DNA from: a virus
Lineage: Duplodnaviria > Caudoviricetes
IMG/VR virus record: IMGVR_UViG_3300032083_001532
Span: 1 to 58,474 of that record
Length of the DNA: 58,474 bases
Direction: 5' to 3' (one strand)
The notes beneath the pieces are model-generated. The model was given only the letters and a program-made list of their open reading frames with translations. It made no database searches and was not told the origin of the DNA. The position numbers and the translations under genes were made by a program. Of this stretch, positions 4,555 to 58,358 are shown piece by piece (positions within the stretch are counted from its first letter, which is position 1; each line of letters starts with the position of its first letter).

Positions 4555-4586
4555 AGGCCCTTCCCTTGTGGAGGGGCCTTTTTATT
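4555..4586 (+). terminator. intrinsic terminator immediately upstream of terL
   Basis: AGGCCCTTCC-CTTGT-GGAGGGGCCT stem (one G.U) followed by TTTTATT. Confidence 0.5.
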
Positions 4587-4589
4587 AAG

Positions 4590-33134: not shown

Positions 33135-33138
33135 AATC

Positions 33139-42100: not shown

Positions 42101-42357
42101 TGGCTGAATATTACCAGACCTATGGCTGGCTGTTGCAGATGGACAATGCGCTGTCCAATATCGACGATACGCTGGGCAAATATCGAGACCTCATTGAGCT
42201 AATCTTCCGCGATCCAAACATGAGCGCGGAGGAAAAAGAAGGGTATCTTGAAGATATCATATCCGCCCGTTCAGAGGTTGTTAGCGTTGTCCCTGAACTG
42301 CGCAAGTTCCTTTACAAAGACATGAAGGAAGAATGGAAAAAATCCATGAACCCCTAG
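33139..42357 (+). CDS. giant polyvalent internal virion protein (HExxH peptidase, NUDIX, kinase-like, probable ADP-ribosyltransferase, LPD38-like)
   Basis: ~3070 aa; HEYTH at 35635; NUDIX box G.....LTLQQNARKEVYEETGL at ~36475; YIK...E...WD....DNML...IDQG kinase-like at ~37015-37690; LFR/SMS/EAE at ~37950-38155; IPIPFEVG...NPVP...NYSFF...IVP...SP...IKGYTG LPD38-like C-terminus. Confidence 0.85.
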   Translation: MANVIRVNAPDKSYDFKIAGDKPTEEEYQRMDAFLMDRYPDYQGRPPEPDLLDYPGEFFTAIGRGALDMGATTLRGMGAEELSDDLREFTAKNLARDPSFEDSTAITLGEGLGSTIPFLATATAPGRLAKVGLGFGLGGFAGSGEQAERIEAYEERTGEDVPKWKEYLSRSLGFGVGLTEMLPPFRILKGIPRNIPNSAKEFVGQSIMDVIKGGGEEGLQEAASGLLQDFIEAGIYNPDLNVGESMWEEFTLGAGVGGILTGAVNTYALPGRIRKARQQERDLRAGEQKEQEKVQVLTEAQIDAANAPNVLQPDMQMQPNESPGDFARRQMEAEYGPAPKNVPNVQYNPLQRQDGFWEILNDNGVAMGAPARTEAEAKERIDVYSQFAYQARVAEELANVTGGADSTTGQPTTATAGDIHQMLDEKNIKWDEDPDFMAFTKTITGKERLDDLTSYELGNLKNTLAPLPTQPSLRSFGDVQNDFRQNSEGTDGDAAKYSLPDIDPATVQPGQTVTLFDPMGTPVDVQAEAVSEAGSIIYTHPETGESNIADASEFGTKDPTSPLFVIESMPKKPEVREIPDNTLAWLDRRLSEKIDAHLNADRDAVSSEIFHFMRQQNAVRAEKSRRETSADSIEARSMNEQARSTERVPPTVEDTENAVERSADTNSEQMDQRHPEKKDEPSGPAVPEEAQREVEGIPAPDEKDAVPPEQRKRQKMKKGKPAKNAGKQTPEPVEVPEPEVRPEQEVATPMVRFNEDFEADTVKLEKEFQEKLNKLGASSVMVRLAKTLFTNKSGTRGAHGVFANKLIGLSLGHTDPNASYDKKMEALTPHFYHEYTHWLRTNDKFKPSEWRGLVAYSKRNKMPGQNLSIYEAARKVYTDGGTDLRRDSKARDRVEEEAVAKIFELATAGTIKLNGGPKAQHKEVMGFIEKLGDTLRGRNRNSVQSIFERFNAGQIAARPDKIRTFQALRRHGYPPISKPPSDAADEERRREEGRDVKTVRESNLTDKAKYSFDYMFEPDEAQPTMAFSGSDEDLNVDELPRELNGWSLEKIAPGDKEWAAYEDTPIMNEPPLPDLDGKTLSTGMVMIEPDGRVWITEPTNHFGGYEHTFPKGGMAEGLTLQQNARKEVYEETGLLARAASWLGDYEGDKSVTRYYIGMRHSGSPLDHGLETQSVKLVDFKELDSFLNKKRDKNISGDIFSLMNYGDSTLNATYNNFYGKDVNTFQPFDETMDAGDLEDLFNSALGAVTKDSEPQNTEPSVINAHHNVLADGDPLTGAPTNIFEYEMFNPTQRGSNLGATFTDSQGNRFYIKAYENPEQARQEVVASRLYQAAGIPAPRAFLVSTLDPNTADPFVFPGGMAPSETAVATRWVEGYSQNSTVLQNQTASLTDVHDGFVVDAWLGNWDVVGLDFDNMLVGEEAGAVIRIDQGGTLQFRAQGGSKPFTDEVLELDTMRDPQMAPQATRVFEGVTDEDLRTGAQRIMAIPDDVIYDIVNQAGADPSLVDTLIARKAYIADKVGVIKNSGVIVPDLGANVISFGDLKEIGMDWKASHREAFDAWEGNIQGPGNARAMDAWIKNNSETWQASLDFIHSRLRKLAPSGKIFLFRDPGGWGSYSGPDRAGMNWRFSEEHPYMSMSINHKFGSSGITGRFAATVDIEDTIGVTAGAWADEAEITVKRSGIEQTPFVTILNGDYGSAIVNPQSAKAALAGAAKTAQEIPGIAYPVYEGGAKYDQPSLVHQEETYQSHSDYGRNFQHYTGSMLTANFGGAVMQRAINDVVADGIAGARAENMPFFMAMERIADKDIDAFYKEHGRLPDFVRPGVDISLRPARIQGKKGMNEQASQGEMNRTLSRLLAGAGREVEVALFNQNDGSSLKTNAARIMWTPETQMEVKNLANAKSLEEFSEEVQKRQYEMHRKMSGLVRSIVSSKVTVQIPANITGKQISEFWRIAEEVGSAKEDVKQADEAFPVATKNNPFTYLEQQVGDKPYIEIVFEGVGRNEDVASKSAQLWYYDAITAGKGEMDATERYLRGQFFPEEFEVTVGEDGSVEAPFANEPHAAWRRPVAHAILRRLAVDDGTWGRNLSDADRAGVQKNLNKIFTEEAMPFEHQKDSKLRNVAEYNAQFASQSDRLADLRKWSKVEDLKTLREELEIDPDTKRFYSQPYDDNLTEEMNAVMNKHSPHRKQATVGQSILDSLQQRGDWLTALRQKFIDKYDKIAKNSQLIAQMMGDEKMLYADSSAAAAAYLSDRARGIFASVIKAGVPTYINGGFKVVTEIGGQKVGGLLDILQPLYQNGYNTNLVRQWQTYGIARREQQILIDQAADPDYKPDYVFQMSNAERTAALNIANAYPEVQVVFEAYNEWNGHTVKFMRDTGVIDDAAADEWMRGSSYIPFYRELDGEGPQGPVGVLSGLADIPTPRKLKGSTERRVGDPIENLARNAQAAITAGMKNVAMQRAMRDAYTLGQARNLTAAVEAGEISREQMEKDSTHTYRQDGKTINVAIYDPLLFDAVSSVHEGRLPGWASILAAPSTLLRETVTRDPGFMLANMLRDTASVWVTSGANITPVVSTLNNFVRESKDFLAGKQDENPLALGGVIGGYDFSQDPKNIKKWMERTMREKGMSKKTNWDYFRLVWDKAGDLTTASDAATRMAVYNDVLKDTGNEYQAMYQALEVINFSRRGSSPVMRVMTAMIPFLNARIQGLDVLARAMAGTYSAKDVNNRSAATMRFLLRGATLTGLSLAYYALMYDDDDYLSKGMAERDDHWIVPVGEGLPPVMIPIPFEVGFMFKVIPERLAAMFAGEDLPRDVSASILRGIGTTLEMNPVPQFAMPVLEATMNYSFFKQKDIVPYYMENLDPTLEARTTTSDTARRLAMGVDAVARGLGLASPGEEAGMLESFRSPLKMEQIIKGYTGTIGTYILETTDALVRMVEGAPERPGRRLDQQPILKRFLSANTGSGQLEQFYEMRSAVREVAGSIRELEARGRFDDMAEYYQTYGWLLQMDNALSNIDDTLGKYRDLIELIFRDPNMSAEEKEGYLEDIISARSEVVSVVPELRKFLYKDMKEEWKKSMNP

Positions 42358-48595: not shown

Positions 48596-49088
48596 CTTCG
48601 GCACCCCAGAGGCTCGCAATCACAACACGATGCGTGTTGAGAATGTTGACCCCAAGGGCAACATTGTTCGGATCAGGAACCTAGATCAGACAGAATTTGA
48701 CAGGCTGGCCCTTGTTGGGGATATAACGCCAGACCAGTTTCAAGCGGGTCAGCAGTTCTCAAGCGCGTGTTGGAAGGCAGGGGGTTTTGTGAAGGCTGTG
48801 AATTGGGGGCGCACAGGTGGGAGCGCAGGTAACAGCCACGAAAGGCGAGCGGTCTTGTCGGCTATGGCGGCAGCAGAACCGCTTCACTACATGCAGAAGA
48901 ATTGCGGCAGGGATGTCGCGGGGTTGGTCGTTCGGGTGGCTATAGACCAAGAGCGATGCACGGGTAAGGCGCTGCAAGATTTACGGGGGGGGTTGGATGC
49001 GTTGGTGCGGTACTATTCCGCAGCCATAAAACGCAAACAAAAAAAGAGGGCGGCTGCTTTCGCAGCCGCCCTTTCTTCGGTCGGTTGA
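48492..49088 (+). CDS. DUF6456-like (GafA C-terminal-like) putative transcription regulator
   Basis: DRL...G.IT..QFQAG..F ... W ... LR.GLD.L..YY pattern; overlaps helicase 3' end; AAGGAA RBS. Confidence 0.55.
   Translation: MATKRKRKRKVQRKPYGSASSTGRRSKTSQHISLDFGTPEARNHNTMRVENVDPKGNIVRIRNLDQTEFDRLALVGDITPDQFQAGQQFSSACWKAGGFVKAVNWGRTGGSAGNSHERRAVLSAMAAAEPLHYMQKNCGRDVAGLVVRVAIDQERCTGKALQDLRGGLDALVRYYSAAIKRKQKKRAAAFAAALSSVG
49036..49078 (-). terminator. intrinsic terminator ending the early (- strand) region
   Basis: perfect AGGGCGGCTGC-TTTC-GCAGCCGCCCT stem; A-run on its left (U-tract on - strand), TTCTT on its right. Confidence 0.75.
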
Positions 49089-49131
49089 GTAACCTGCTAT
49101 TCAGGAAGTGCAATCCACCATGTAGTTGGGT

Positions 49132-49503
49132 TTATCCCCCATAGTTTTTTCCTTCCATTTCCTGAACGTCATCCTGTGCTTCGTACATGCTGTTCCATAC
49201 TTGGTGCAACATGCGCATCCGGTAATGATGGTCATCATCAAATTGGGACGCTTTGGCGACACGGTTCTTGAAGTTGGTGTAAGTGATGTTGTTGATTTCC
49301 TTTGTCAGTTCTTCAACAACGATTGGCTTGTCGATAAAGGCGCGGAACCGATAGTCCGTCCCGGCACCCTCAATTACATTTGCGTTTGTGTGCCCAAAGA
49401 TACTTTCGATGTCTCCGGGGAACCGGGCGCGGACGCAGAAGCGTTCGCTGTTATTCTTGTCTTCGACAACAGACAAGACTGCGTTTTCAGTAAATAACCA
49501 CAT
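49132..49503 (-). CDS. conserved hypothetical phage protein
   Basis: MW.F.....SVV.........VRAR..GDIE.....TDYRFRA......I.Y.NFK pattern. Confidence 0.75.
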   Translation of the reverse strand: MWLFTENAVLSVVEDKNNSERFCVRARFPGDIESIFGHTNANVIEGAGTDYRFRAFIDKPIVVEELTKEINNITYTNFKNRVAKASQFDDDHHYRMRMLHQVWNSMYEAQDDVQEMEGKNYGG

Positions 49504-49529
49504 ATGTTTTTCCTTCCAGTGATTTGACG

Positions 49530-49558
49530 TTTGTATAGTAAAGTAGTAGCCGTGTCAA
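49530..49558 (-). promoter_or_regulatory. sigma70-type promoter
   Basis: TTGACA-17 bp-TACAAA on - strand upstream of the 49503 ATG. Confidence 0.55.
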
Positions 49559-49718
49559 GGGCTATACGCAAAGGCGTGCTAAAGTTTTATTGGTTTTCCC
49601 TTCCAAGTTAATAGTGATTGGTCACAAATAACCTAACGAATAAATGGCAGGGACCGGGATTAGCGGTAGCGAACCGCCTACCCGGCTTACGACACCCAGT
49701 TGCCGACACCGCGCAGTG

Positions 49719-49895
49719 TTAGCGTTTCATGTTCATGTCTACCTGATCTTGTTCAGTGCGTGACAGGGACACCTTTAGTTTGTTGTTGCTGGCTTCGACA
49801 GTTACGCTCCAACCATCTTGGCGCAACTCATCAATTGCTTGCCCAAAGGGTTCTAGCGCGGCGTTTACTTTGTCTACCGCCTCTTGCCTGTTCAT
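49719..49895 (-). CDS. small hypothetical protein
   Basis: GGAG RBS then MNRQEAVDKVNAALEPFG; 58 aa. Confidence 0.55.
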   Translation of the reverse strand: MNRQEAVDKVNAALEPFGQAIDELRQDGWSVTVEASNNKLKVSLSRTEQDQVDMNMKR

Positions 49896-50139
49896 TGGTT
49901 TTTCTCCATCCCAACAGAATGTTGGTGCTATAGAAGTCTCTGGAACGACCGTCTCTCTCGTACAATAGCGCAACTCTAGCGCACGGCACCACACGAAAGC
50001 GAGCGCCAAATACACGAAAGCGCATATTGGTGAAACGTTCGCCGGGACATGCTCGTGCTAGTCGTTTCAGTTCATCAAGGGTGATTGGCCTGCCCCTTTT
50101 GGGGACAGGCTTTTCAAGGATGCGATTATACATCCTCAT
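49831..50139 (-). CDS. Arg-rich hypothetical protein
   Basis: ATGA-coupled to the 50136 stop; 3' end overlaps the next gene. Confidence 0.45.
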   Translation of the reverse strand: MRMYNRILEKPVPKRGRPITLDELKRLARACPGERFTNMRFRVFGARFRVVPCARVALLYERDGRSRDFYSTNILLGWRKTNEQARGGRQSKRRARTLWASN

Positions 50140-50804
50140 TGTGATCCCACAGCGTCAAGCAGGGCTTTATCGGGAAGCGGCGCACCCCAGACAGTTTCTG
50201 GTTTTGTTCCAGACGTGGTTAGTTCTTTTATTAAGGCGTATGTGGCTTGACCGCGCAGGTCCATCAGCCAATCATAGGCTTTGCTGTTTCGCCAGCCGAC
50301 ATCATTACAGGCTTGATATTCAAAGCAATTTACGCTTGAGATAACCTGAGTTGGTTCAAATGCTGGCCAGTAATTATTTTCAAGAACGCTTATAGCGGCT
50401 TCCTTGTAGTTCGCTGAAGCAACTTCATCCTGTCCGTACCGGGCCTGCATGGAAAGCTGATTGCTTTCGATTAGCATGTCCAGAATTCTGTGAATGCTTT
50501 CCCCTGTATAGGGGCGATCAGAATAGCTTTCGGACGCCCGGACAAGGTACGCCAGATGGTGCGGGTCTACATAAAATGCGAATGGTTTGATCTCCTCTTT
50601 ACTCTCCACAACTTTCCAGTTTTTATCAGTGATGACGTAGGGCCTCTCAAAGCCATCCAGCGCCTCAAAGGTTTCTTTGAGTGTTGGGAACCCATCCCAT
50701 ACTTGTGGCGTGCCGCCCCACCTTTTCAGGTAGCGCAAGTGGTCGTTTACGGAGCCTTGCTCGTAATCTCCATCAGACCAGAACACAAAATAGTTCAAGT
50801 TCAT
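50136..50804 (-). CDS. hypothetical phage early protein
   Basis: repeat-element RBS; N..S..ARY ... C.EYQAC...W..S.A pattern. Confidence 0.7.
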   Translation of the reverse strand: MNLNYFVFWSDGDYEQGSVNDHLRYLKRWGGTPQVWDGFPTLKETFEALDGFERPYVITDKNWKVVESKEEIKPFAFYVDPHHLAYLVRASESYSDRPYTGESIHRILDMLIESNQLSMQARYGQDEVASANYKEAAISVLENNYWPAFEPTQVISSVNCFEYQACNDVGWRNSKAYDWLMDLRGQATYALIKELTTSGTKPETVWGAPLPDKALLDAVGSQ

Positions 50805-50914
50805 GGTTCTTCCTTCCAGTTAAAATGTTATCAGTCACAATTTGCGACTAGGGTTATTGAAAATAACCTAACGAATGGGGTGGTGCGCAGTAGATGTACC
50901 GCGCACCACCAGCG

Positions 50915-51154
50915 TTACCCGATCCCCAAAGCGTCAGCAACCTTGTCTTTGTTCATAACGTCGGTGCGGCTCATGTAGACAGCGGGACCGTCCAATACGG
51001 CCTTAAAGCCTTCGCCGTGGGCACGCTGGGCGTACCATTGGCCATGGTCGTTGCAGTTGATATAGGCCACTAGGTTCGACATTGAGCCAGTGTGACCCGC
51101 ATACATGTGGTGCTGATTGCGGTGGCTGTTCAGGATTATGTAGTTCGTGTCCAT
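50915..51154 (-). CDS. small early protein
   Basis: ATG directly after ACTGGAAGGAAAACCA. Confidence 0.65.
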   Translation of the reverse strand: MDTNYIILNSHRNQHHMYAGHTGSMSNLVAYINCNDHGQWYAQRAHGEGFKAVLDGPAVYMSRTDVMNKDKVADALGIG

Positions 51155-51249
51155 TGGTTTTCCTTCCAGTTGATAGTGATTGGTCATAAATAACCTAACC
51201 GGGTAGCAGTTAGATCACTTACGTTCTCTAACTGCGTCCCCGAATGATT

Positions 51250-51828
51250 TTAGTTCATGCCAAGTTTGTCTTTGGCGTCATGGATGGTGGAAATCAGGCG
51301 TTGTCTTAGGGCCTTGTCGCCACGGTCCATAACCGCCGCAAGTTGCTCTGCCTCTGGCAGATAGACCTTCGCAAAGTCAGGGTCGTGATCGGCAATATCA
51401 AGTGTGTTGTCTATCAAGTCAGCATACTTGATGGTTTGTGTCGCATAGCCTTGAGAAGAGGCTCGGACAGCTTCGGCAGCTTTACGGGCGGGCCTGTTCA
51501 TGTCAGGATACGCTTCGTGTGTGTAACGATCCGTCAGATCATCCACCCATTCAGCCACAATCGGCCCAAATTGTTCATCAATTTCACGCCTTGTCACTCC
51601 GCAATCTTCGATTGTGTCATGCAAGACTGCGGCACAAAGCATAGCTTGGTTTGCCAAAGCTATGTGCTTCATGTCGTGGCCTGAGTTTATAAGCGTGTGT
51701 GCCACGTTCAGCGGATGCTGAATATATGGCGTGTCTGTGTATTTGCGGACTTGCCCATCATGGACTTCGGTCGCAAAATCAATAGCACGCTTAAATCCCG
51801 GCGAAGCCGTTATAGGATATGTCGTCAT
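51250..51828 (-). CDS. HD-domain hydrolase, SpoT/Mesh1-like small alarmone hydrolase
   Basis: A..FA...H.GQ.RK....PYI.HP..VA, AAVLHDTIEDC, V..LTD, IK.AD..DN. Confidence 0.85.
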   Translation of the reverse strand: MTTYPITASPGFKRAIDFATEVHDGQVRKYTDTPYIQHPLNVAHTLINSGHDMKHIALANQAMLCAAVLHDTIEDCGVTRREIDEQFGPIVAEWVDDLTDRYTHEAYPDMNRPARKAAEAVRASSQGYATQTIKYADLIDNTLDIADHDPDFAKVYLPEAEQLAAVMDRGDKALRQRLISTIHDAKDKLGMN

Positions 51829-51907
51829 GGTGTTTTCCCTTCCAAGTAAATAGTGATTTGTCATAAATTGACTAACGGGGACAGGGTGTTAGCCCTGCCC
51901 CCAATGC

Positions 51908-53437
51908 TTAGGCAGCGATTTGTGAGACATCTTCCTCGAAGAGGATGATCTGGCCAAAAGGCACCGGGTACTGGCCAGCCTTCAAGGCTTTGCCATAGCA
52001 CCCATGATGCTTGCGCCAGTTGACGCCGTTTCGATCAGACATCCAGTAGACTGGATAGTCTGGAGCGTCCCCAAAGTCACCATCGTATGCTATCAGGTCA
52101 GTGAAGTAGATTGCGCCCTTGATGTTGGCGCATTCTTCGTTGAGGTAATCGAACCCCGGATAAAACCGGGTGCCACCACCGCCAACGGGGTTGAATTTGA
52201 TTTCTTCACCAAGGGTGAAGGTATCAACCCCCTTCACGTCATAATCCACGTAGAGAACGTGGACAGTCTGTGGCGCAGCTTCTTCGACAAGTTCGTTGAG
52301 CTTTTCTTCGAAAAGCGCAAGCAAGTCTTCGTTGATAGATGCCGACGTGTCGATCAGCACTGCCAGTTCGCCTGCGTCTTCCTTCACAATGGAAGGAAGA
52401 TATACGTCACTGGCAATCCGGCGACGATTGGGACGGTTCCAAGTCGTAGACTTGGGGAACATCTGCGAGAATGCTTCCTGCAACTCGTCGCGCCAGTCGA
52501 TGGTCTTGACCTTCAACGCCTCATTAACGATGCGTTGAATGCCGCCATCACCGGCACCCTTGGTTGCGTTCTGCACTTGCGCAGCCTGCACCACGTTGAT
52601 CTGGGTGTCTTTTTCAAGCTTGTCCAGATCAGCCTGTGAAAACGGTTTACCGTCGTCATCGCATGGTGGCAGGATGTCCCCAAAGAAGTCGTCGTCTCCA
52701 AAGGTAACATCGTCACCTTCGGTGTCGTCGTCACCATTGCCGCCACTGTCACTGTCGTCACCTTCGGTGTCGTCGTCACCGGAGCCACCGTTACCTTCGG
52801 TATCGGCGTCTTCGCTGTCGTCGTCATCGTTGCCGGGATCATTACTGTTACCAGTAATATCTTCGTCGTCTTGGTCGTCACCTTCGGTGTCGCGATCACC
52901 AGACGGCTTGCCGTGGTAGCCACCTTCGCCATCTTCGCAACCTTCGCCATCTTCGCCATCTTCGCGCGGCTTGCCCCACGGTTCGGCAATAGGCTCTTTA
53001 GCCTTCCACAAGATACTATAAGTATCTTCTGCGGAACCGTTCAGTTCAGGGTCGTAAAGGCCCTTGCCGTGGGGGAATTCAAACAGCGGCTTACCCTTGC
53101 TATCTCTGGCATCCACAAGGATGCTGTTGATAGAGTAGTCCGTTGCCTCACCCCATGTGTCACGATCACGATTGCCCATCCGCACAGAGTGCAGGCAGGC
53201 AATATGTGACAGTTCATGTGCTGCCAGAGTAACAACCTCACCGATGGTGAGGATGTCGAGAAAATCCGGGTTGTAGTATACCCGGACGCCATCAGTCGCC
53301 GCTGTTTTGATAGGAAAACCGCCAAGGGTTTTCTTTGCTATCACATACGGCACCTTGACAGCCAAGGTTCCATAGAATGGCGAATGACGGAGCAAGCGAG
53401 TGTAAGCTTCGCTTAATTTTGCTTCTGGTGTCATCAT
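51908..53437 (-). CDS. DUF2201-type metallopeptidase + vWA domain protein
   Basis: TAATDG..VYYNP.F, AHELSH (HExxH), A.D..IN, acidic linker, W.RPNRR, IDTSASI (MIDAS), GGGGT.F, YFTD. Confidence 0.9.
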   Translation of the reverse strand: MMTPEAKLSEAYTRLLRHSPFYGTLAVKVPYVIAKKTLGGFPIKTAATDGVRVYYNPDFLDILTIGEVVTLAAHELSHIACLHSVRMGNRDRDTWGEATDYSINSILVDARDSKGKPLFEFPHGKGLYDPELNGSAEDTYSILWKAKEPIAEPWGKPREDGEDGEGCEDGEGGYHGKPSGDRDTEGDDQDDEDITGNSNDPGNDDDDSEDADTEGNGGSGDDDTEGDDSDSGGNGDDDTEGDDVTFGDDDFFGDILPPCDDDGKPFSQADLDKLEKDTQINVVQAAQVQNATKGAGDGGIQRIVNEALKVKTIDWRDELQEAFSQMFPKSTTWNRPNRRRIASDVYLPSIVKEDAGELAVLIDTSASINEDLLALFEEKLNELVEEAAPQTVHVLYVDYDVKGVDTFTLGEEIKFNPVGGGGTRFYPGFDYLNEECANIKGAIYFTDLIAYDGDFGDAPDYPVYWMSDRNGVNWRKHHGCYGKALKAGQYPVPFGQIILFEEDVSQIAA

Positions 53438-53558
53438 GGTTGATGTTTCCCTTCCAGTAATTGTTACCAGTCACAATTTGTGACCGGGGCTATTGAAAAT
53501 AACCTAACCGGGATGCGGTTGGATCACTTACGTTCTCCAACCACAGCCCGAATGATTT

Positions 53559-54452
53559 TTAGGTGGATTTGCCGCCACCCGACAAAAAGATGCTTGCCAT
53601 TTCGGCAACATCTTCTGCGGCATCAGCCGCTTTGTCACGAAGATCAGGATCGGATTTCAATTGATCCCTAGAATAGGGAGCAATGTCATCCATGATCCGC
53701 TTTGCGGCCCTTGTCAGGGCCGGGTCGTTGGTCAGGTTCAGATGGGGCAGGGCTTCGGCCAGATCAACCACATGGTTGATTGTGGCGTTGTAGATGTCCC
53801 GCTTGCCACCGTTGCCGGTGTCCTGCCCATAATTGCGCAGGGCGTCGGCAAGATTGCCGACCAGATCGACCACCTTTGTGGCAGGCTCCAAAACAGCGTC
53901 GTTCAGACGCTGGTTCAGCTTTTCGTTCACCGATGCTTCGATAGCGGCGAGAGCATCCTTGGATGCTTTCACGCGGATGTCGTCGGTGTCTGGCACGGCT
54001 TGGTATTCGACTTCACAGACAAATTTGTCCCGAATGTCATCCTTTGAAGGATAGTCCCCTTCATTAAACGCGGTATTCAAGATCAATCTTGCTTCGTCAA
54101 CGGCTTCGCCGTACCCGACTACGAACTGGTCAGCAGCACTATCAAATGCCAGTTTGGCATCCTTGATTGCTTCGTCGCATTTGGTGAATGCGGACATCGG
54201 CAATAGCCGCCAACCACTTTCGTCCCATGGCAGGGTCCATTCTTTCATGGCACGCCGGACATGTTCGCTATGCGTTTTCATGTCCTTGAGTGATTGCACA
54301 TCGACCAGCGGCTTACTGACTTTGAAGTCAGCGCTTGACTGGTGTTTGCTCTGCACTTCCGTGGCAAGCTGGTCATCCAGCTTGCGACCAGACCATTTTT
54401 TGATAGTCACCTTTACCAAGGTGCATCGTTGAGATAAGTCTTTCACGATCAT
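53559..54452 (-). CDS. DUF3150-like protein
   Basis: LV.V.I..WSG.KLD, SK.L, TLPW...G.RLLP, F...DYP, LNLT.DP.L; sits between AAA and vWA genes. Confidence 0.7.
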   Translation of the reverse strand: MIVKDLSQRCTLVKVTIKKWSGRKLDDQLATEVQSKHQSSADFKVSKPLVDVQSLKDMKTHSEHVRRAMKEWTLPWDESGWRLLPMSAFTKCDEAIKDAKLAFDSAADQFVVGYGEAVDEARLILNTAFNEGDYPSKDDIRDKFVCEVEYQAVPDTDDIRVKASKDALAAIEASVNEKLNQRLNDAVLEPATKVVDLVGNLADALRNYGQDTGNGGKRDIYNATINHVVDLAEALPHLNLTNDPALTRAAKRIMDDIAPYSRDQLKSDPDLRDKAADAAEDVAEMASIFLSGGGKST

Positions 54453-54559
54453 GGTTTTTTCCCTTCCAGTTTAGTGACCAGTCACAGTTTGTGACCGGGA
54501 CCAGTGTAAATGGCCTAACCGGGACAATGCTAATGCATTGCCCCGAATACCTTCAAATA

Positions 54560-55582
54560 TTATTGGTTGCCGAATTCGTTCCGCATTTTGACGCCCCAGT
54601 CACTTTCAAGAATTGAAGCATTCAATGCTTCAATCATTTCGACAGTGACCGATTGGAATTCACGGGGAAGACGTTCCACGTATGCTCCGAATGCGTCAAC
54701 TGTTTCGTCTTTGATTGCGTTAGCAATCAAGCCGGTAACAGCATAGAGTGCCGATGGGTCCGTTGGAACCAAGGCACCCTGCGGGTTGTTGCGAATTTCA
54801 GCCGGTGTTGGCAAGCTATCAATGGTCCGTAGGAACCCAATGAATTCCTTGCTTGCGGCTTCGCCAAGATAGCCAAGAATACCCTCTTCGAGTTCATTCT
54901 GTGGCATATCAAGCTGCATAATGTCAGAGACATTATGCCATGTCCGCAATGTCGGGAATGTGTCAGCTTTCGGATCGAAATCCACCAGCAATTCCGGGCG
55001 ACCTTCGGTGAACACCAGCACTTCCGGCACCAAGTTTAACTTGGTAGCCAGTGCCCGGAAACAATCGGTAGAGGCGACCACATCAATGTGGTTCCACCGG
55101 GTTTTGACCTGTGTACCCATTTCATGGGTGCCTGCCTTGTGTTCCCGTTTGTTGGATGCTCCAACAAATGACACGCCTTTAGGCAGCGGATATTGGCCGA
55201 TACGACGATCCATCACCATCGTGCCAGCCGCATTCTGCGTCATCTGGAACGCTTGCGAGAATTCATCCATAAAGATGATGCCCTGCCAGTCAGGCTCTTT
55301 GTGGAGTTCCACAAAGCGACCGTTTAGTTCATCCCAAAAGGCAGGTGGATACCACCTAGTGGTGCCATCTTCGACCTTTGGCGTGCCGTTGAAGTCAACA
55401 GCGTCCATCATGGACAGATCGCAAACGATCAGTCCATAATCGGGGATGTGGTGCGTCCTGATGTGCTTCGCCACATTGCGAACAGTCGTCGTTTTCCCGA
55501 TACCGGGAGCCGACCACATAAAGACGTTCTTGCGAGCAAGAACCATGGCCGTGATGTAGTTTTGTGTTTGGCTAATAAGCAT
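54560..55582 (-). CDS. MoxR/AAA_5-type AAA+ ATPase
   Basis: WSAPGIGKT Walker A, D..D..G.P, IIFMDE Walker B, ASN, R..H, FPT.RTW. Confidence 0.9.
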   Translation of the reverse strand: MLISQTQNYITAMVLARKNVFMWSAPGIGKTTTVRNVAKHIRTHHIPDYGLIVCDLSMMDAVDFNGTPKVEDGTTRWYPPAFWDELNGRFVELHKEPDWQGIIFMDEFSQAFQMTQNAAGTMVMDRRIGQYPLPKGVSFVGASNKREHKAGTHEMGTQVKTRWNHIDVVASTDCFRALATKLNLVPEVLVFTEGRPELLVDFDPKADTFPTLRTWHNVSDIMQLDMPQNELEEGILGYLGEAASKEFIGFLRTIDSLPTPAEIRNNPQGALVPTDPSALYAVTGLIANAIKDETVDAFGAYVERLPREFQSVTVEMIEALNASILESDWGVKMRNEFGNQ

Positions 55583-55744
55583 GGCTTATTTTTCCCTTCC
55601 AGTAGTAGTGACCAGTCACAATTTGAGACTGGGGTTATTGAAAATAACCTAACGAATAACTTAACAAAATCAGTGACCTAGCCCCCTATCACCGTAAGGT
55701 TCTAGGGGGCGTAGGCACTGGAAGGGCACCATTGCCCAACGTTA

Positions 55745-56035
55745 CTAGCCTACGGCTAGTTCAGCCTGTCGCCGTGAGGCTCTGGCCTTGTTCAGGTTTT
55801 CAGCCGATACGATAGAGTATCGGCGCTGATGCACTTCGCCTTCGGAGCCAAGCACCGGGAACTTGATTGTTCCATTCTTTTCCATCTGGAAAAGAACGCG
55901 CATGGCACCCTTGGTGGTTCGGTATGGCTCATTATCCAAGTGTAACGCCCATTCAAAAGCCTTGGCTTTGCGGTTGTAGCACTTGAACTTGCCGGAGTTC
56001 CAGCCGCCAAATCCATGCTCAACAATGTAGAACAT
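55745..56035 (-). CDS. small early protein
   Basis: GGGAG RBS before ATG 56035. Confidence 0.6.
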   Translation of the reverse strand: MFYIVEHGFGGWNSGKFKCYNRKAKAFEWALHLDNEPYRTTKGAMRVLFQMEKNGTIKFPVLGSEGEVHQRRYSIVSAENLNKARASRRQAELAVG

Positions 56036-56045
56036 TGTGTTCTCC

Positions 56046-56231
56046 CTATCTGTTGATAAAGTCGTTGATTGAGGCACCTTCTTCGGAGAAGAAGCCTACG
56101 TTCATCACGTCAACACCGCCAAGCCAAGCCCCAAACAATGAGGCGGTCAGGCCCAAGAGGATAAACAAGTTTATCCCGCATAGGACCGCAAGCGTTGTTG
56201 CCAGTGGTGTGACATATTTAATGTTTTTCAC
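56046..56231 (-). CDS. small membrane protein
   Basis: GTG start after repeat-element RBS; long hydrophobic stretch. Confidence 0.6.
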   Translation of the reverse strand: MKNIKYVTPLATTLAVLCGINLFILLGLTASLFGAWLGGVDVMNVGFFSEEGASINDFINR

Positions 56232-56298
56232 GGTTTGTTCCTTCCAGTTGGTAATAACCTAACCGGAACAAGGCGTTAGCCTTGTCCCGAATGCAGTA

Positions 56299-56550
56299 TT
56301 AGTGGGCTGGCAGCACTTCGGCTACCACATCGACCACTTCGGCACCCTTATAGGGTGAGCCGTAGAGGTCGGCACAGCCGCTAAAGCGGCCTTCAAAATC
56401 ACCGTCTTCGTCACGGACAACATCAATTACCCGCAGGCCAGCAAGATAGACTTCTATCTTGCTAATCTCATTAACGGTTAAGCCTTCGGCGTCACCGTTA
56501 ATCAGGTAGCAGATTGTTGCCATAGGTACTGTCACTTCAGTGGTGTTCAT
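56299..56550 (-). CDS. small early protein
   Basis: repeat-element RBS; P...CYLINGD..GL...E pattern. Confidence 0.7.
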   Translation of the reverse strand: MNTTEVTVPMATICYLINGDAEGLTVNEISKIEVYLAGLRVIDVVRDEDGDFEGRFSGCADLYGSPYKGAEVVDVVAEVLPAH

Positions 56551-56617
56551 GGTGTTTTCCTTCCAGTTGGTAATAACCTAACCGGAACAACACGTTAGTG
56601 TTGTCCCGAATGCAGTA

Positions 56618-56827
56618 TTAGTCTATCCAAGGGGTGAACTCTCGTTCACCAGCAAAGATCAGCAGGTACTGTTCCCTGTAAGGGGACAGATTGAGCAGGG
56701 CACCAAATTCAAATCCAAGGATGTTGAATTTGAGTGTGCGAGTGGTCTCATAGACCAGTTCCTTAGTGTTGTTTCCCTGTTCGTCAGTATCCTTACGGAT
56801 AAAGTGTTGAGTATGTTTGTTGTACAT
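56618..56827 (-). CDS. small early protein
   Basis: AAGGGAG RBS before ATG 56827; flanked by repeat elements. Confidence 0.6.
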   Translation of the reverse strand: MYNKHTQHFIRKDTDEQGNNTKELVYETTRTLKFNILGFEFGALLNLSPYREQYLLIFAGEREFTPWID

Positions 56828-56884
56828 TCTATGTACTCCCTTTTGTTTGAAATAACTAAACCGGAACAAGGGGTTACAAGTAAC

Positions 56885-57315
56885 CCCCTGTTCCGAATAA
56901 ACAGCGTTTAACAGCCTGAAAAATAGGCTACGCTGTCCTTTTCTGGAAAAGGAAAGGATTGCACTTCCTGCCATGCCTCCGGCATTATTGGGATTGTCTT
57001 TGCTGCGCACAGTCCAGAGGACCATGCGAGGCAAAGCCAGCGCCCACACGGAGCATGTGTCGTCACGCACAGCAGGTTACTCGAACGGGCCGAGGTCCAA
57101 CTTCCGTCCGGCACCCTTTAGGGTAACCGACAGACAAGGCTTCACACGAAGCAGTCAATGTCCCACTTTGGAATGGTCTTTGGCCTCTCTCTCATGTGAA
57201 TACCAGAGGTATCGTGTAAGAGACAAACCGCATCAGCAATCGCCGCGGACCGAAGGTATTTATGCCGTGGCCCCTTCGGAGGGCCGTGGCTCTCGACGTT
57301 GCCGCCGAAAGCCCC
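56885..57315 (-). ncRNA. long structured leader / candidate ncRNA
   Basis: no credible ORF; successive stems with GCAA and cUUCGg tetraloops and G.U pairs on the - strand; begins just after a TTGACA promoter. Confidence 0.55.
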
Positions 57316-57318
57316 ATT

Positions 57319-57347
57319 ACTAAACCAAACGGTAAAGCATTTGTCAA
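57319..57347 (-). promoter_or_regulatory. candidate early promoter
   Basis: TTGACA-17 bp-TTTAGT on - strand; -35 overlapped by inverted repeat CAAGCCC-TTTA-GGGCTTG (57345-57362). Confidence 0.5.
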
Positions 57348-57560
57348 GCCCTTTAGGGCTTGTTTGATTGCCAAGCCTTAAAAATGGCGATTTTTGTGGT
57401 CCTTGCGGGATCATGATGGTTTCCTGCGACAATGCGTGAAAAACCTCTGGTTTTCGCACGTTGTCATGTGAACCGTGGTGCAGGATTGGTGACGGGTCAC
57501 AATTCGTTGCCGTTCTTGGTGGTTGGGGTTGAGGTTTTGGGCCTTTCACACGGGTCTGCC

Positions 57561-57623
57561 TAGGCGTGCACACGTAGGCAGAGGCGTGCAGGCGCGTGAT
57601 GCGTAGGCAGAGGCGTGCACACA
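57561..57623 (+). repeat. short direct repeats upstream of terS
   Basis: CGTAGGCAGAGGCGTGCA at 57573-57590 and 57602-57619; AGGCGTGCA three times (57562, 57582, 57611). Confidence 0.7.
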
Positions 57624-57764
57624 AGGGGGGATTGCAGCGGGAAGAATAGGGGGTTAAGATTGGTGCGCGGTAAGTAAACGCGAAATCTTGTGCGCGGGAT
57701 TGGAACTCGATCATATGTTGCTTCGGTGTCCAGTGTGCCCGCATAACCCCGAAGGGGCGGTTTT

Positions 57765-58358
57765 ATGGATGACATCCAAGACAAAGCATACAGGGCTTTA
57801 GAAGACATAGAGATAGTAAGAGCAGATAGTAATCCACCAGAGGTGGACGCTGAAAAGCTCAATAGTTCCACGGCACTACCCCCGAAGGGGAAGGGTAGAA
57901 AGAGACTAACTAAGCAGATGAACGACTTCGCAGGCAACATCCTTAAAGGGATGAGCCAGAGTGAAGCCTACAAAGCTGCATATAATGCAGAGAACATGAA
58001 GAAAGCTTCGATTGCGACTGAGGCTTGGAAGCTCATGCGACATCCTGAGGTGGCCCAGATCATAGGGGCAGGGATGGAGAAGAAGAGGGAGGTTAATAGC
58101 ATCAGCGGGGATATGATGCGCTCTAAGGTGTTGGAACGCTTATGGTTTGAGGCAACCGAAGCCCGCAATGATGGTGCACGTATCAGAGCACTGGAGCTAC
58201 TAGGTAAGGTGCCAGAAGTCGGACTGTTCACTGCAAGTGAAAAGGAAAAGCCCAACGATATCAAGGCATTGGAGCGCATTGTCGGAGACAAGCTGAAAGC
58301 ATTAGGGCTGGATGCTACTATCGTGGACAGCAATAACCCTTCTAAATCAAAGATTTAG
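57765..58358 (+). CDS. terS: terminase small subunit
   Basis: LT.QM..FA..I..G.SQSEAYK.AY........A.KL...P.V, then VL..L..EA......RIRALELLGK...VGLF. Confidence 0.85.
   Translation: MDDIQDKAYRALEDIEIVRADSNPPEVDAEKLNSSTALPPKGKGRKRLTKQMNDFAGNILKGMSQSEAYKAAYNAENMKKASIATEAWKLMRHPEVAQIIGAGMEKKREVNSISGDMMRSKVLERLWFEATEARNDGARIRALELLGKVPEVGLFTASEKEKPNDIKALERIVGDKLKALGLDATIVDSNNPSKSKI

What the first reader, a model, noticed from the sequence alone, without database searches (positions are those of the whole stretch)
56885..57315. ~430-nt multi-branched RNA at the head of the early transcript
Directly after a TTGACA promoter the - strand reads as consecutive stems: GGCUUUCGGCG-GCAA-CGUCGAGAGCC, GGCCCU/GGGGCC, AC-CUUCGG-U, GGUUAC/GUAACC enclosing two hairpins, UGCUGUGC/GCGCAGCA, GCAUGGUCC/GGACUGUGC, possible long-range UUGUCU/AGACAA, CCUUUUC/GAAAAGG and ACAGCGU/ACGCUGU. 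No convincing ORF is present. I could not match it to tRNA, tmRNA, RNase P, group I/II intron or known small ribozyme cores. It could be a new large phage ncRNA or an RNA-mediated antiterminator for a hairpin-rich 8-kb operon.
Basis: partly seen in the sequence, partly recalled or inferred. Interest (0 to 1): 0.75.

Follow-up and report, generated by a model that had tools for sequence, protein, structure and literature searches.

The report
Conserved pseudoknot leader RNA of phages
The first ~450 bases made from this marine phage's early promoter are a non-coding, folded RNA whose first ~70 bases (a hairpin and a pseudoknot) recur at the head of early operons in otherwise unrelated marine phages, so it looks like a new RNA family of unknown function.

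Summary
Window 57315-56861 (- strand) is ORF-less, lies behind a sigma70-like promoter, and folds far better than shuffles (z -6.6).

Better evidence comes from variation. In environmental contigs laid on it, 19 variant sites include 4 G-C/A-U double changes at predicted partners (P about 1e-4 to 5e-4). One contig's 10 of 10 differences are structure-neutral.

I found homologs in 9 further loci, making 7 lineages with the window. They share a 5' hairpin (P1) followed by CACGGCC-X-GGCCACGGCAUA-(A-rich)-X'. X/X' covaries at 6 of 7 pairs. This fits an H-type pseudoknot.

The carriers are HTVC023P-type podoviruses, a T7-like phage and an integrase islet in an alphaproteobacterial MAG. In each, the module sits just behind an early promoter.

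Three relative loci (L093, L167, L165; L166 by eye only) end the leader with a type III hammerhead just before the first gene. The window has a 16-bp hairpin there.

Rfam 15 has no match. Function is not shown. My best guess is a host-machinery-binding module, possibly put-like. Rivals are a released trans-acting RNA or a cis stabiliser. High fold z-scores are common across this early operon, so z alone proves little.

The parts
57319..57347 (-). sigma70-like early promoter: TTGACA (57347-57342), 17 nt, TTTAGT (57324-57319); inferred start near 57313
   Evidence: Read. The -10 matches 4 of 6 and is not listed by the scan rule. Relatives carry TTGNNA-17-TAnAnT/A boxes in front of their P1 (by eye; L354 TTGACC-17-TACATT is listed).
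57288..57313 (-). P1: 5'-terminal hairpin GGCUUUCGGCG-GCAA-CGUCGAGAGCC, 11 bp with two G.U pairs
   Evidence: In the MFE and constrained folds. All 7 lineages have a hairpin of different sequence that abuts CACGG (by eye).
57250..57288 (-). Conserved module, proposed H-type pseudoknot: CAC-GGCC(57285-57282)-CU-X CCGAAGG(57279-57273)-GGCC(57272-57269)-L3 ACGGCAUAAAUA(57268-57257)-X' CCUUCGG(57256-57250)
   Evidence: CM R1, built without the window, hits it at 50.3 bits, E 7.5e-8. In 8 sequences X/X' has 6 of 7 pairs changed on both sides and 96% of cells paired, with 0 of 500 shuffles reaching the score. Forcing X/X' costs 4 kcal/mol. S1 and L3 are invariant, but the search patterns required them.
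57080..57249 (-). Lineage-specific middle domain: long hairpin 57229-57182, hairpins 57176-57163, 57162-57129 (with 57152-57139 inside) and 57128-57110; CAUUGACUGC at 57160-57151 is shared with L093
   Evidence: Hairpin 57152-57139 has a compensatory G-C to A-U change (57152/57139) in one contig. Variant 57165 breaks a predicted A-U pair of hairpin 57176-57163.
56967..57076 (-). 3' domain: long irregular hairpin. Helices 57076-57067/56976-56967, 57053-57046/56983-56977, 57045-57043/56992-56990, 57039-57031/57003-56995 and apical 57028-57019/57015-57006, plus side hairpin 57066-57057
   Evidence: One DNA contig (56945-57138) differs at 10 sites. Three are compensatory pairs (56979/57051, 56991/57044, 57059/57064), two turn G.U into A-U, and two lie in a tetraloop.
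56901..56952 (-). Two further hairpins, 56952-56937 and 56936-56901
   Evidence: Variants 56934, 56935 and 56939 keep their pairs through G.U. Variant 56937 breaks a pair in a helix of probability 0.5.
56851..56896 (-). 3' boundary: 16-bp hairpin (56896-56861) followed by CCGGUUUAGUUAUU. It is one copy of a module repeated before 9 early genes. It is terminator-like or a processing site, and it sits where relatives have a hammerhead
   Evidence: Hammerhead_3 in relatives: L093 437-493 and L167 629-685 (41.7 bits, E 4e-6), L165 335-407 (31.9 bits).
56618..56844 (-). RBS (AAAAGGGAG) and the first early ORF (69 aa, ATG at 56827), of no known family

Best explanation
WHAT IT IS (shown; about 0.85). 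Host RNA polymerase starts at the sigma70-like promoter and first makes a ~455-nt untranslated, highly folded leader. Its first ~70 nt are a 5'-terminal hairpin (P1) abutting a conserved element that fits an H-type pseudoknot. The element has stem 1 GGCC/GGCC, a 1-3 nt loop, a covarying 5-7 bp stem 2 (X/X'), and an invariant A-rich loop 3 (ACGGCAUA-A-A). This module defines a new RNA family. It is found at the head of the early operon in at least three unrelated kinds of marine mobile element. The remaining ~380 nt are a lineage-specific folded body kept by compensatory substitutions. A strong hairpin marks the 3' end in the window, and a self-cleaving hammerhead does so in relatives. These separate the leader from the first mRNA.

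HOW IT WORKS (inferred; about 0.3-0.35). The carrier phages share almost no early proteins, yet the module's single-stranded letters are invariant. Its partner is therefore most likely a conserved host component met at the very start of transcription. I commit to RNA polymerase. The nascent P1 and pseudoknot would bind the elongation complex, as the ~70-nt HK022 put RNA does, and make early transcription resistant to pausing and termination through the hairpin-studded ~8-kb operon. Cutting the leader off would not undo this, because put action does not need tethering (PMC9378689, passages). The cut would give the mRNA a clean, structured 5' end.

The confidence given (0.35) is for the whole statement including the mechanism.
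For: Non-coding. There is no Pfam or PHROG family for any frame, and no RBS. Natural variants are 11 non-synonymous against 3 synonymous in the 68-aa frame and include a stop.

Structure under selection. Of 19 variant sites, 8 form 4 double changes at MFE partners, 5 keep or improve their pair through a G.U wobble (two turn G.U into A-U), 4 are unpaired and 2 break a pair. Chance of 4 or more partner pairs is 1e-4, or 5e-4 with clustered shifts.

Strand. The - strand folds 20 kcal/mol better than the + strand, and the wobble changes only make sense on the - strand.

Family. Pattern scans and CM R1 give the window, L093, L167, L165, L166, L351, L353, L322 (=L335), L352 and L354. X/X' covaries.

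Contexts. L167 has TerL 57%, portal 50% and capsid 70% identical to the window. L353 has TerL 41%. L354 has a T7-type terminase, an integrase and a T7-like RNAP, and L322 is an integrase islet between host genes.

Position. A promoter-like box pair lies directly in front of P1 (by eye, 114).

Core constraint. L093 and L167 differ at 40 of 529 positions, but at none in positions 18-220.

Size and place match put. [quoted passage not shown]

RNA libraries. Contigs from two metatranscriptome runs cover 56896-57046, 57127-57277 and 56979-57129. This is weak, because DNA carry-over is not excluded.
Against: - No experiment or RNA-end data. The transcription start is inferred.
- The -10 box is poor.
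- Stem 1 and loop 3 invariance is partly an artefact, because every homolog was found with patterns that required those letters.
- Only 7 lineages are known.
- The pseudoknot (stem 1 and stem 2 together) is a topological inference. RNAalifold preferred the simple GGCCCU/GGGGCC hairpin.
- For the put-like step: there is no sequence or structure likeness to put. Put is two stem-loops, while this is a hairpin plus a pseudoknot.
- Terminator-like sites are not enriched in the window's operon (15 against 10.2 +/- 3.6) or in relatives.
- The module tails (UUAGGUUAUUU) are weak U-tracts.
- High fold z-scores extend over the coding early operon, so some structure may reflect a general property of this region.
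- L007, a TerS relative (44% identical) with a similar promoter and a ~400-nt leader, has no module and z of only -1.4.
Confidence: 0.35

Rival explanations
1. Stand-alone, trans-acting early ncRNA. The leader is cut off (by a hammerhead in relatives, by the hairpin, a terminator or an RNase in the window) and accumulates. Its invariant pseudoknot loop binds and blocks a conserved host protein, such as an RNase, Rho, an RNA chaperone or a defence nuclease. This would be an RNA counterpart of the first-expressed anti-host proteins of T7-like phages.
For: Three relative loci (L093, L167, L165) have a hammerhead exactly at the leader/mRNA junction, and L166 has one by eye. The window's 16-bp hairpin with a U-rich tail is listed as terminator-like. 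The 5' hairpin and compact folding suit a stable RNA. Contigs from two RNA libraries lie on the leader (weak). The partner must be conserved across hosts, which is the same argument as for RNAP.
Against: Only ~70 nt are conserved, while the released RNAs would be 250-600 nt of unrelated sequence. L353 and L354 have no clear terminator and no ribozyme hit at the junction (by eye). No abundance data are available. No candidate partner is known.
Confidence: 0.25
2. Cis-acting 5' UTR with an ordinary role. It would protect the early mRNA from 5'-end-dependent decay and from Rho, or tune translation of the first gene. This could be riboswitch-like, with alternative pairings of X and X' to distal segments.
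For: P1 starts within a few nt of the inferred 5' end, as in known 5' stabilisers (recalled: ompA, T4 gene 32). A heavily paired, untranslated leader leaves little room for Rho. The MFE pairs X and X' with distal partners (57278-57269/57091-57082 and 57255-57247/57109-57101) at only 4 kcal/mol below the pseudoknot-compatible fold, so a switch is conceivable.
Against: In the hammerhead lineages the leader is severed from the mRNA, so it cannot stabilise or regulate that mRNA after cleavage. A simple stabiliser does not need invariant loop letters across unrelated phages. No riboswitch family matches. The distal partners are not conserved in relatives (by eye).
Confidence: 0.15
3. DNA-level element. 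This would be a spacer at the leading end of the genome that carries promoters for transcription-driven DNA entry, a packaging or replication site next to terS, or hairpin promoters for a virion RNA polymerase. On this view the RNA fold is incidental.
For: The region lies next to terS and, in the T7-like L354, just after the terminase gene, which is near the genome end. The ATPase is N4 gp24-like. CACGGC occurs twice in the module. An 18-nt direct repeat occurs three times just upstream. The + strand also folds well (z -3.6).
Against: G.U-to-A-U and A-U-to-G.U changes, and the 20 kcal/mol strand asymmetry, fit an RNA of the - strand rather than duplex DNA or the other strand. Long-range compensatory pairs 53-72 nt apart are not expected for protein-binding DNA sites. 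The 3083-aa virion-block ORF shows no match to solved N4 RNAP chains.
Confidence: 0.05
4. No discrete function. The leader would simply share the general excess of secondary structure of this phage's early region, and the conserved 40 nt would be a small regulatory motif unrelated to the rest.
For: The early operon has mean z of -3.2 in 42 windows, with several coding windows below -5. The two leader windows are ordinary among them.
Against: In one contig, 10 of 10 differences are structure-neutral, including three long-range compensatory pairs. Relatives keep long ORF-less leaders of 250-600 nt with compensatory changes of their own: 5 pairs between L093 and L167.
Confidence: 0.1

Closest known systems
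HK022 put RNAs (putL, putR), protein-independent processive antiterminators
   Same: A compact element of about 70 nt, transcribed right behind an early phage promoter by host RNAP. Put carries an RNA triplex, and the A-rich loop 3 here could form one (inference). Put acts without tethering, so cleavage of the leader would be tolerated (PMC9378689, passages).
   Different: Put is two stem-loops in a V shape, not a hairpin plus a pseudoknot. There is no sequence likeness. Put is known from lambdoid phages of enterics, while this occurs in marine podoviruses and an alphaproteobacterial islet. Binding to RNAP and read-through are untested here.
Hammerhead in front of the first early gene of haloviruses HF1/HF2 (Perreault et al. 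2011)
   Same: That hammerhead lies 13 nt upstream of the start codon of the first ORF of the early polycistronic transcript, and the mapped 5' end lies at the cleavage site (PMC3088659, passages). L093, L167 and L165 have the same layout.
   Different: The window itself has no hammerhead. It has a hairpin module there instead. The archaeal viruses are not reported, in the passages I saw, to have a conserved leader upstream.
T4 gene 32 mRNA leader pseudoknot (recalled, not checked in a call)
   Same: An H-type pseudoknot at the 5' end of a phage mRNA leader that serves as a protein-binding nucleation site and goes with mRNA stability.
   Different: That one is bound by the phage's own gp32 and is restricted to T-even phages. 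Here the carriers share no obvious early protein, so a host partner is more likely.
T7 early leader with RNase III sites (recalled)
   Same: A long untranslated head of a host-RNAP early transcript at the leading genome end, with conserved hairpins between early genes that separate the mRNAs. L354 is a T7-like phage.
   Different: The T7 leader mainly holds three tandem promoters and has no conserved pseudoknot module. RNase III cutting of the window's modules is untested.
phi29 pRNA (recalled)
   Same: A structured RNA transcribed from an early promoter at the genome end, next to the packaging functions.
   Different: pRNA is part of a packaging motor that lacks TerS and TerL. There is no likeness in fold or sequence. 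It is listed only as a position analogy.

Membership tests
Any Rfam 15 family | Covariance-model score at or above the family's gathering score | tested here: not met
   0 matches over the whole window. At E up to 10 on 56500-57900 there were only 6 weak hits, the best being CyVA-1 at 18.6 bits against 41.4. Relatives give only hammerhead hits.
Hammerhead ribozyme | Core CUGANGA ... GAAA with three stems and a cleavage site, in the window's leader or modules | tested here: not met
   No hit in the window at gathering scores or at E up to 1-10. The feature is met in relatives: L093 and L167 at 41.7 bits and L165 at 31.9 bits, all below the gathering score of 48.5 but with the full core. L166 is by eye only and has an extra U. 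L351 has a type II hit at 37.7 bits, at or above the gathering score of 37.
tRNA / tmRNA (including two-piece) | ARAGORN or Rfam tmRNA model match; acceptor stem and T-arm | tested here: not met
   ARAGORN finds 0 genes in the window, and there are no tmRNA hits. A recurring GGYUCGAR motif in several leaders was seen by eye only.
HK022 put-type antiterminator RNA | About 70 nt, directly downstream of an early promoter transcribed by host RNAP | tested here: met
   P1 and the pseudoknot span 57313-57250, which is 64 nt, starting at the inferred transcription start. The position is the same in relatives (by eye).
HK022 put-type antiterminator RNA | Two stem-loops with put-like sequence | tested here: not met
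   The architecture is a hairpin plus a pseudoknot. The put features are taken from PMC9378689 passages. No put sequence was compared directly.
HK022 put-type antiterminator RNA | Binds the RNAP beta' zinc-binding domain and suppresses terminators far downstream | not testable with these tools
   This needs transcription assays. Terminator-like sites in the operon are not enriched.
H-type pseudoknot (structural class) | Stem 2 formed between the loop of stem 1 and downstream sequence, supported by covariation | tested here: met
   Stem 2 has 6 of 7 pairs with changes on both sides and 96.4% of cells paired, and the slid controls collapse.
H-type pseudoknot (structural class) | Stem 1 forms at the same time as stem 2 | tested here: inconclusive
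   GGCC/GGCC can pair in 8 of 8 sequences but never varies, and the search patterns required it. Loop lengths (L1 of 1-3 nt, L3 of 12-14 nt) are compatible.
Riboswitch | Conserved aptamer with an expression platform next to the regulated gene | tested here: inconclusive
   The pocket-like element is conserved, but it lies 250-600 nt from the first gene and is severed from it by a hammerhead in relatives. No known class matches.
Intrinsic terminator (3' hairpin 56896-56861) | G+C-rich stem followed by a U-tract | tested here: inconclusive
   The scan lists it, with 16 pairs of which 8 are G-C, and tail TTTAGTTATT. The U-tract is interrupted, and the same module precedes 9 genes.

The most novel reading that the evidence does not exclude
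The P1 and pseudoknot module is a second, structurally unrelated class of protein-independent RNA that reprograms host RNA polymerase (put-like). It would have spread by horizontal transfer among unrelated marine phage families and an integrative islet. It would be coupled to ribozyme or hairpin release, so that the modifier stays on the polymerase while the mRNA gets its own 5' end. This would make RNA-only antitermination, or anti-pausing during transcription-driven genome entry, a general phage strategy rather than an HK022 curiosity.
Probability: 0.25. Interest if true: 0.85.

Novelty: new variant of a known kind. Interest (0 to 1): 0.62.

Why it matters
Structured leader RNAs at the head of phage early operons are known in only a few model phages. 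This module has invariant single-stranded letters and a covarying pseudoknot stem. It is shared by HTVC023P-type podoviruses (a widespread group of marine pelagiphage relatives, PMC9599517 abstract), a T7-like phage and a chromosomal islet. It is absent from Rfam 15.

Conservation of this kind, in carriers that share few or no detectable proteins with the window, points to a direct interaction with conserved host machinery in the first seconds of infection. The juxtaposition with hammerheads gives a natural experiment on why phages sever their leaders.

The module is short enough (~70 nt) for direct biochemical tests with RNAP, RNases or cell extracts.

Tried and rejected
Searches that found nothing or only chance hits:
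- DNA similarity of the leader to 50,697 phage records: no match. The same held for the L354 and L353 leaders.
- Close protein relatives of the ATPase in viral contigs: none.
- The window's module motif in viral contigs: none.
- blastn and nhmmer of the leader against 160 loci: only one weak hit, E 0.12, which led to L093.
- CM R1 found nothing in 160 TerS, TerL and ATPase loci, nor in Pag-Yong1, DSL-LC04, HTVC027P, HTVC023P and CRP-902. Hammerhead_3 in those five: one hit at E 0.09, and the 14 control genomes ring similarly.
- The scan gave L162 and L163, which are chance hits in coding DNA.
- L164 is a CRISPR array whose repeat shares 13 nt with the module. I take this as chance.
- The scan gave 96 genome loci, of which only L322 and L335 are members. 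L278 scores 21 bits with no promoter or P1 and was rejected.
- The scan added 59 new loci, and 0 of them are members.

Alignment and folding:
- MAFFT misaligned the window against L093 and shifted the window row in A7. R1 was therefore built without the window.
- RNAalifold on 4 relatives gave a poor consensus.
- The L007 leader has z of -1.4.

Ideas dropped:
- tmRNA or a T-loop reading, because no model hits.
- Loop 3 pairing with AUGCCG at 56985-56980, because that segment sits in a variant-supported helix.
- The long-range MFE pairing of X with 57091-57082, because it is not conserved in relatives.
- An RNA anti-CRISPR reading.

Literature. Searches found no description of this RNA. PMC9599517 holds none of the words noncoding, intergenic, promoter, ribozyme or 'RNA polymerase'. 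Supplements were not seen and might list intergenic features.

Read cover. No contig of runs X12 or X14 lay on 56500-56895 or on 57278-57800.

Full report
SETTING. The window is a whole IMG/VR virus record of 58,474 bases, judged 96% complete. Genes on the + strand (1-42357) are structural. They include terL (4566-6140), the portal, a major capsid protein 60-70% identical to those of Pelagibacter phages HTVC023P and HTVC027P, Planktothrix phage Pag-Yong1 and phage DSL-LC04, and a 3083-aa ORF with NUDIX and LPD38 domains. terS (57765-58358, +) faces away from a - strand operon that runs from about 57315 to a strong terminator at 49072-49047. That operon encodes small proteins, an N4 gp24-like MoxR ATPase, DUF3150, a DUF2201/VWA protein and an HD hydrolase. 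The finding is the untranslated head of this operon.

THE OBSERVATION. On the - strand, TTGACA (57347-57342), 17 nt and TTTAGT (57324-57319) are followed by about 455 nt with no credible ORF, up to the RBS and the ATG at 56827. The stretch folds at -200.1 kcal/mol, z -6.6 against 100 shuffles. Without the last hairpin z is -5.4 on the - strand and -3.6 on the + strand, with a 20 kcal/mol advantage for the - strand. This phage's whole early operon is unusually structured. Mean z is -3.2 in 42 windows of 200 nt on the - strand and -2.4 in 41 windows on the + strand. It is -0.6 for late genes on either strand (200 windows antisense, 38 sense). The two leader windows are unremarkable among the early ones. 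Fold energy therefore confirms that the stems exist, but it does not single out the leader.

NATURAL VARIATION. Runs holding near-identical DNA were found, and four were laid on 56500-57800 at 80% likeness or more. Nineteen variant sites fall in 56934-57246. Mapped on the MFE structure, they sort as follows:
- Eight sites form four double changes at predicted partners, each G-C to A-U or the reverse: 56979/57051, 56991/57044, 57059/57064 and 57139/57152.
- Two sites turn G.U into A-U (56972, 57070).
- Three sites keep the pair through G.U (56934, 56935, 56939).
- Four sites are unpaired.
- Two sites break a predicted pair (56937, in a helix of probability 0.5, and 57165).

One DNA contig (56945-57138) carries ten differences, and all ten are structure-neutral. 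Random placement of 19 sites gives four or more partner pairs with P = 1e-4. Shifting the four contig-wise clusters gives 5e-4. The same variants are mostly non-synonymous in every overlapping frame. In the 68-aa frame they are 11 against 3 and include a stop. The wobble changes make sense only on the - strand. This supports an RNA of the - strand, above all the long irregular hairpin 57076-56967 and the hairpin 57152-57139.

HOMOLOGS.
- Sequence searches of phage records and of loci around ATPase, TerS and TerL relatives gave nothing except one weak blastn hit (E 0.12). That hit lies beside a TerS homolog in L093, in the same divergent layout.
- The shared letters were CACGGCCCU-N5-GGGGCCACGGCAUA, plus CAUUGACUGC about 110 nt further on.
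- Pattern scans then found L165, L166 and L167 in metagenome contigs. They also found L351/L353 and L352/L354 in viral contigs, and L322 (identical to L335 over the 1000 nt printed) in a Thalassobaculaceae MAG chromosome.
- Chance hits were recognised and dropped: L162, L163, the CRISPR array L164, L278, 94 of 96 genome loci, and 59 of 59 new loci.
- A covariance model built from four relatives without the window hits the window at 57293-57245 with 50.3 bits (E 7.5e-8). It hits nothing else in 160 other loci or in five cultured relatives.
- Every member was found through patterns derived from the window and L093, so the invariance of the required letters is not independent evidence.

THE CONSERVED MODULE. 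In all seven lineages a hairpin of unrelated sequence (P1) ends directly at CACGG (by eye). Then come GGCC, 1-3 nt, a 5-7-nt segment X, GGCC, ACGGCAUA plus an A-rich run, and X', the complement of X. The X/X' pairs are:

| Lineage | X | X' |
|---|---|---|
| window | CCGAAGG | CCUUCGG |
| L093/L167 | GCAGGG | CCCUGC |
| L165 | GGCAGGG | CCCUGCC |
| L166 | ACCGAGG | CCUCGGU |
| L351/L353 | GCUCUGG | CCAGAGC |
| L322 | GGGAUCG | CGAUCCC |
| L352/L354 | GGUUC | GAACC |

On the CM alignment of eight sequences, six of seven X/X' pairs change on both sides and 96% of cells pair. None of 500 shuffles reaches the covariation score, and sliding the partner collapses pairing. That alignment is fitted to the model, which is a caveat. 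X lies between two self-complementary GGCC blocks, so the layout is that of an H-type pseudoknot. Stem 1 would be GGCC/GGCC, with a short loop 1, stem 2 formed by X/X', and a 12-14-nt A-rich loop 3. Stem 1 never varies, so its formation remains an inference. Forcing X/X' in the window costs 4 kcal/mol before any gain from stem 1. P1 and the module span 57313-57250, about 64 nt.

THE REST OF THE LEADER. Leaders are 250-600 nt long and hardly alignable between lineages, although a few short motifs recur by eye (GGNGAAUGGCAGG-like and GGYUCGAR). They are nevertheless constrained. L093 and L167 differ at 40 of 529 positions, with none in positions 18-220 and five compensatory pairs further on. Eleven differences break the L093 MFE, partly because P1 is replaced wholesale. 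L352 and L354 show further compensated helices by eye.

At the 3' end, L093, L167 and L165 have a full-core type III hammerhead 10-25 nt before the first start codon (41.7, 41.7 and 31.9 bits, below the gathering score of 48.5). L166 has a hammerhead-like sequence with an extra U that Rfam did not list (by eye). L351 has a type II hammerhead further inside its operon. The window, L322 and L353 have a strong hairpin at the junction instead.

The window's junction hairpin (56896-56861 plus CCGGUUUAGUUAUU) is one copy of a module that precedes nine early genes. The scan gave 16 matches against 2.9 expected, ten of them on the - strand in 49627-56864, nine of which are module copies.

CONTEXTS. 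L167 is a true relative of the window phage, with TerL 57%, portal 50% and capsid 70% identical, and with terS divergent from the leader. L353 is more distant, with TerL 41% and portal 39%. L351 has HD and DNA polymerase homologs downstream. L354 is a T7-like phage. It has a T7-type terminase, then the promoter TTGACC-17-TACATT, then the leader, early genes, an integrase and a T7-like RNAP. L322 is a ~3-kb islet with an integrase, lying between two-component genes and an ABC transporter. The module therefore travels among elements that share little else, and it always sits at the start of a host-RNAP early unit.

EXPRESSION. Two metatranscriptome runs from two studies hold contigs on 56896-57046, 57127-57277 and 56979-57129. 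Depth is 2, the contigs carry no strand, and DNA carry-over cannot be excluded. This is a weak hint only.

WHAT IT IS AND HOW IT MAY WORK. Shown: this is a non-coding, - strand, structure-constrained RNA element with a conserved 5' module that has no match in Rfam 15. The rest is inferred.
- The carriers share few or no detectable proteins with the window, yet the loop letters are invariant. The partner is therefore probably a conserved host component.
- In the hammerhead lineages the leader is cut from the mRNA, so it must act during transcription or as a free RNA, not as an mRNA stabiliser.
- The ~70-nt put RNAs of HK022 offer the nearest working model. putL lies just behind the early promoter PL. 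The put RNA contains a triplex and binds the beta' zinc-binding domain. It suppresses pausing and termination over 10 kb or more without needing to stay tethered (PMC9378689, passages).
- I commit to this as the most likely mechanism, at about 0.3.
- Against it: the fold is different, and terminator-like sites are not enriched in the operons.
- A released trans-acting RNA is nearly as likely (0.25). A cis stabiliser or switch (0.15), a DNA-level role (0.05) and no discrete function (0.1) follow.
- Hammerheads directly before the first early gene have a precedent in haloviruses HF1/HF2 (PMC3088659, passages).

NOVELTY AND VERDICT. I found no description of this RNA. The evidence is Rfam 15, four literature searches and a word search of the HTVC023P-type genome paper. 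Supplements were closed. It is a new RNA family within the known kind 'structured phage early leader RNAs', possibly a new structural class of polymerase-modifying RNA. Function remains open.

Noticed in passing
window 49627-56864, - strand (sites 49627, 50862, 51189, 53498, 54509, 55643, 56253, 56572, 56851): A repeated intergenic module lies before nine early genes: AUUCGG, a hairpin of variable sequence, CCGGUUAGGUUAUU, an operator-like palindrome GGUCACAAAUUGUGACUGG in four copies, then AACUGGAAGGAA and the start codon. Three copies lack the hairpin and read UUAUUCGUUAGGUUAUU, as if the hairpin were inserted into a fixed motif. It could be a processing site, a weak terminator or a phage-specific promoter. 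L351/L353 share the AACUGGAAGGAA context.
   Followed up: partly
window 49100-57320, - strand: The whole early operon, coding parts included, folds much better than shuffles. Mean z is -3.2 in 42 windows of 200 nt, with several below -5 (for example 56316-56515 and 50716-50915). The same DNA on the + strand gives -2.4, and late genes give -0.6 (with only 12 shuffles per window).
   Followed up: partly
window 57553-57619 (+): There are three copies of an 18-nt direct repeat (CGTAGGCAGAGGCGTGCA, two exact and one 72% identical) and a second 21-nt pair at 57663-57710. They lie between terS and the early promoter and may be protein-binding sites, such as a pac site, an origin or a regulator site.
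   Followed up: no
window 57345-57362: A 7-bp hairpin CAAGCCC-UAAA-GGGCUUG overlaps the -35 box. The scan lists it as terminator-like on the + strand.
   Followed up: no
window 49031-49209 (-): A weak CsrC-family match (30.7 bits, E 2.4e-6, gathering score 61) lies at the end of the early operon and overlaps the strong terminator 49072-49047. The terminator may be driving the match.
   Followed up: no
window 33106-42357 (+): A 3083-aa ORF at the end of the structural block has a NUDIX domain (residues 1090-1199) and LPD38 (2760-2957). It has no sequence match to solved N4 virion RNAP chains. If this protein is injected, a NUDIX hydrolase might act on host RNA 5' ends. Ribozyme-made 5'-OH ends would escape that (speculation).
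   Followed up: no
L351 5788-5854 (+): A type II hammerhead (37.7 bits, gathering score 37) lies inside the early operon of a relative that also carries the 5' module.
   Followed up: no
L322 2600-5100 (= L335): The module, a ~250-nt leader, small ORFs, an XRE-like protein (by eye) and an integrase form a ~3-kb islet. It lies between two-component genes and an ABC transporter in a Thalassobaculaceae MAG chromosome. It may be a prophage remnant or a satellite.
   Followed up: partly
L164 (metagenome contig, CRISPR array): A 36-nt CRISPR repeat shares 13 letters (GGGGCCACGGCAU) with the pseudoknot. About three chance hits were expected for that scan by my own estimate, so I take this as chance.
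   Followed up: no
L167 2-610 (-), L093 139-420 (-), L166 2-136 (-): The first early protein behind the hammerhead in three relatives begins M-x-(I/L)-Y-R-x-P-x-D-x-TSGPNCGPT and later has GGHAQAC. That looks like a Cys/His peptidase-like fold to me, but Pfam finds no family. L093 appears to be cut short relative to L167.
   Followed up: no
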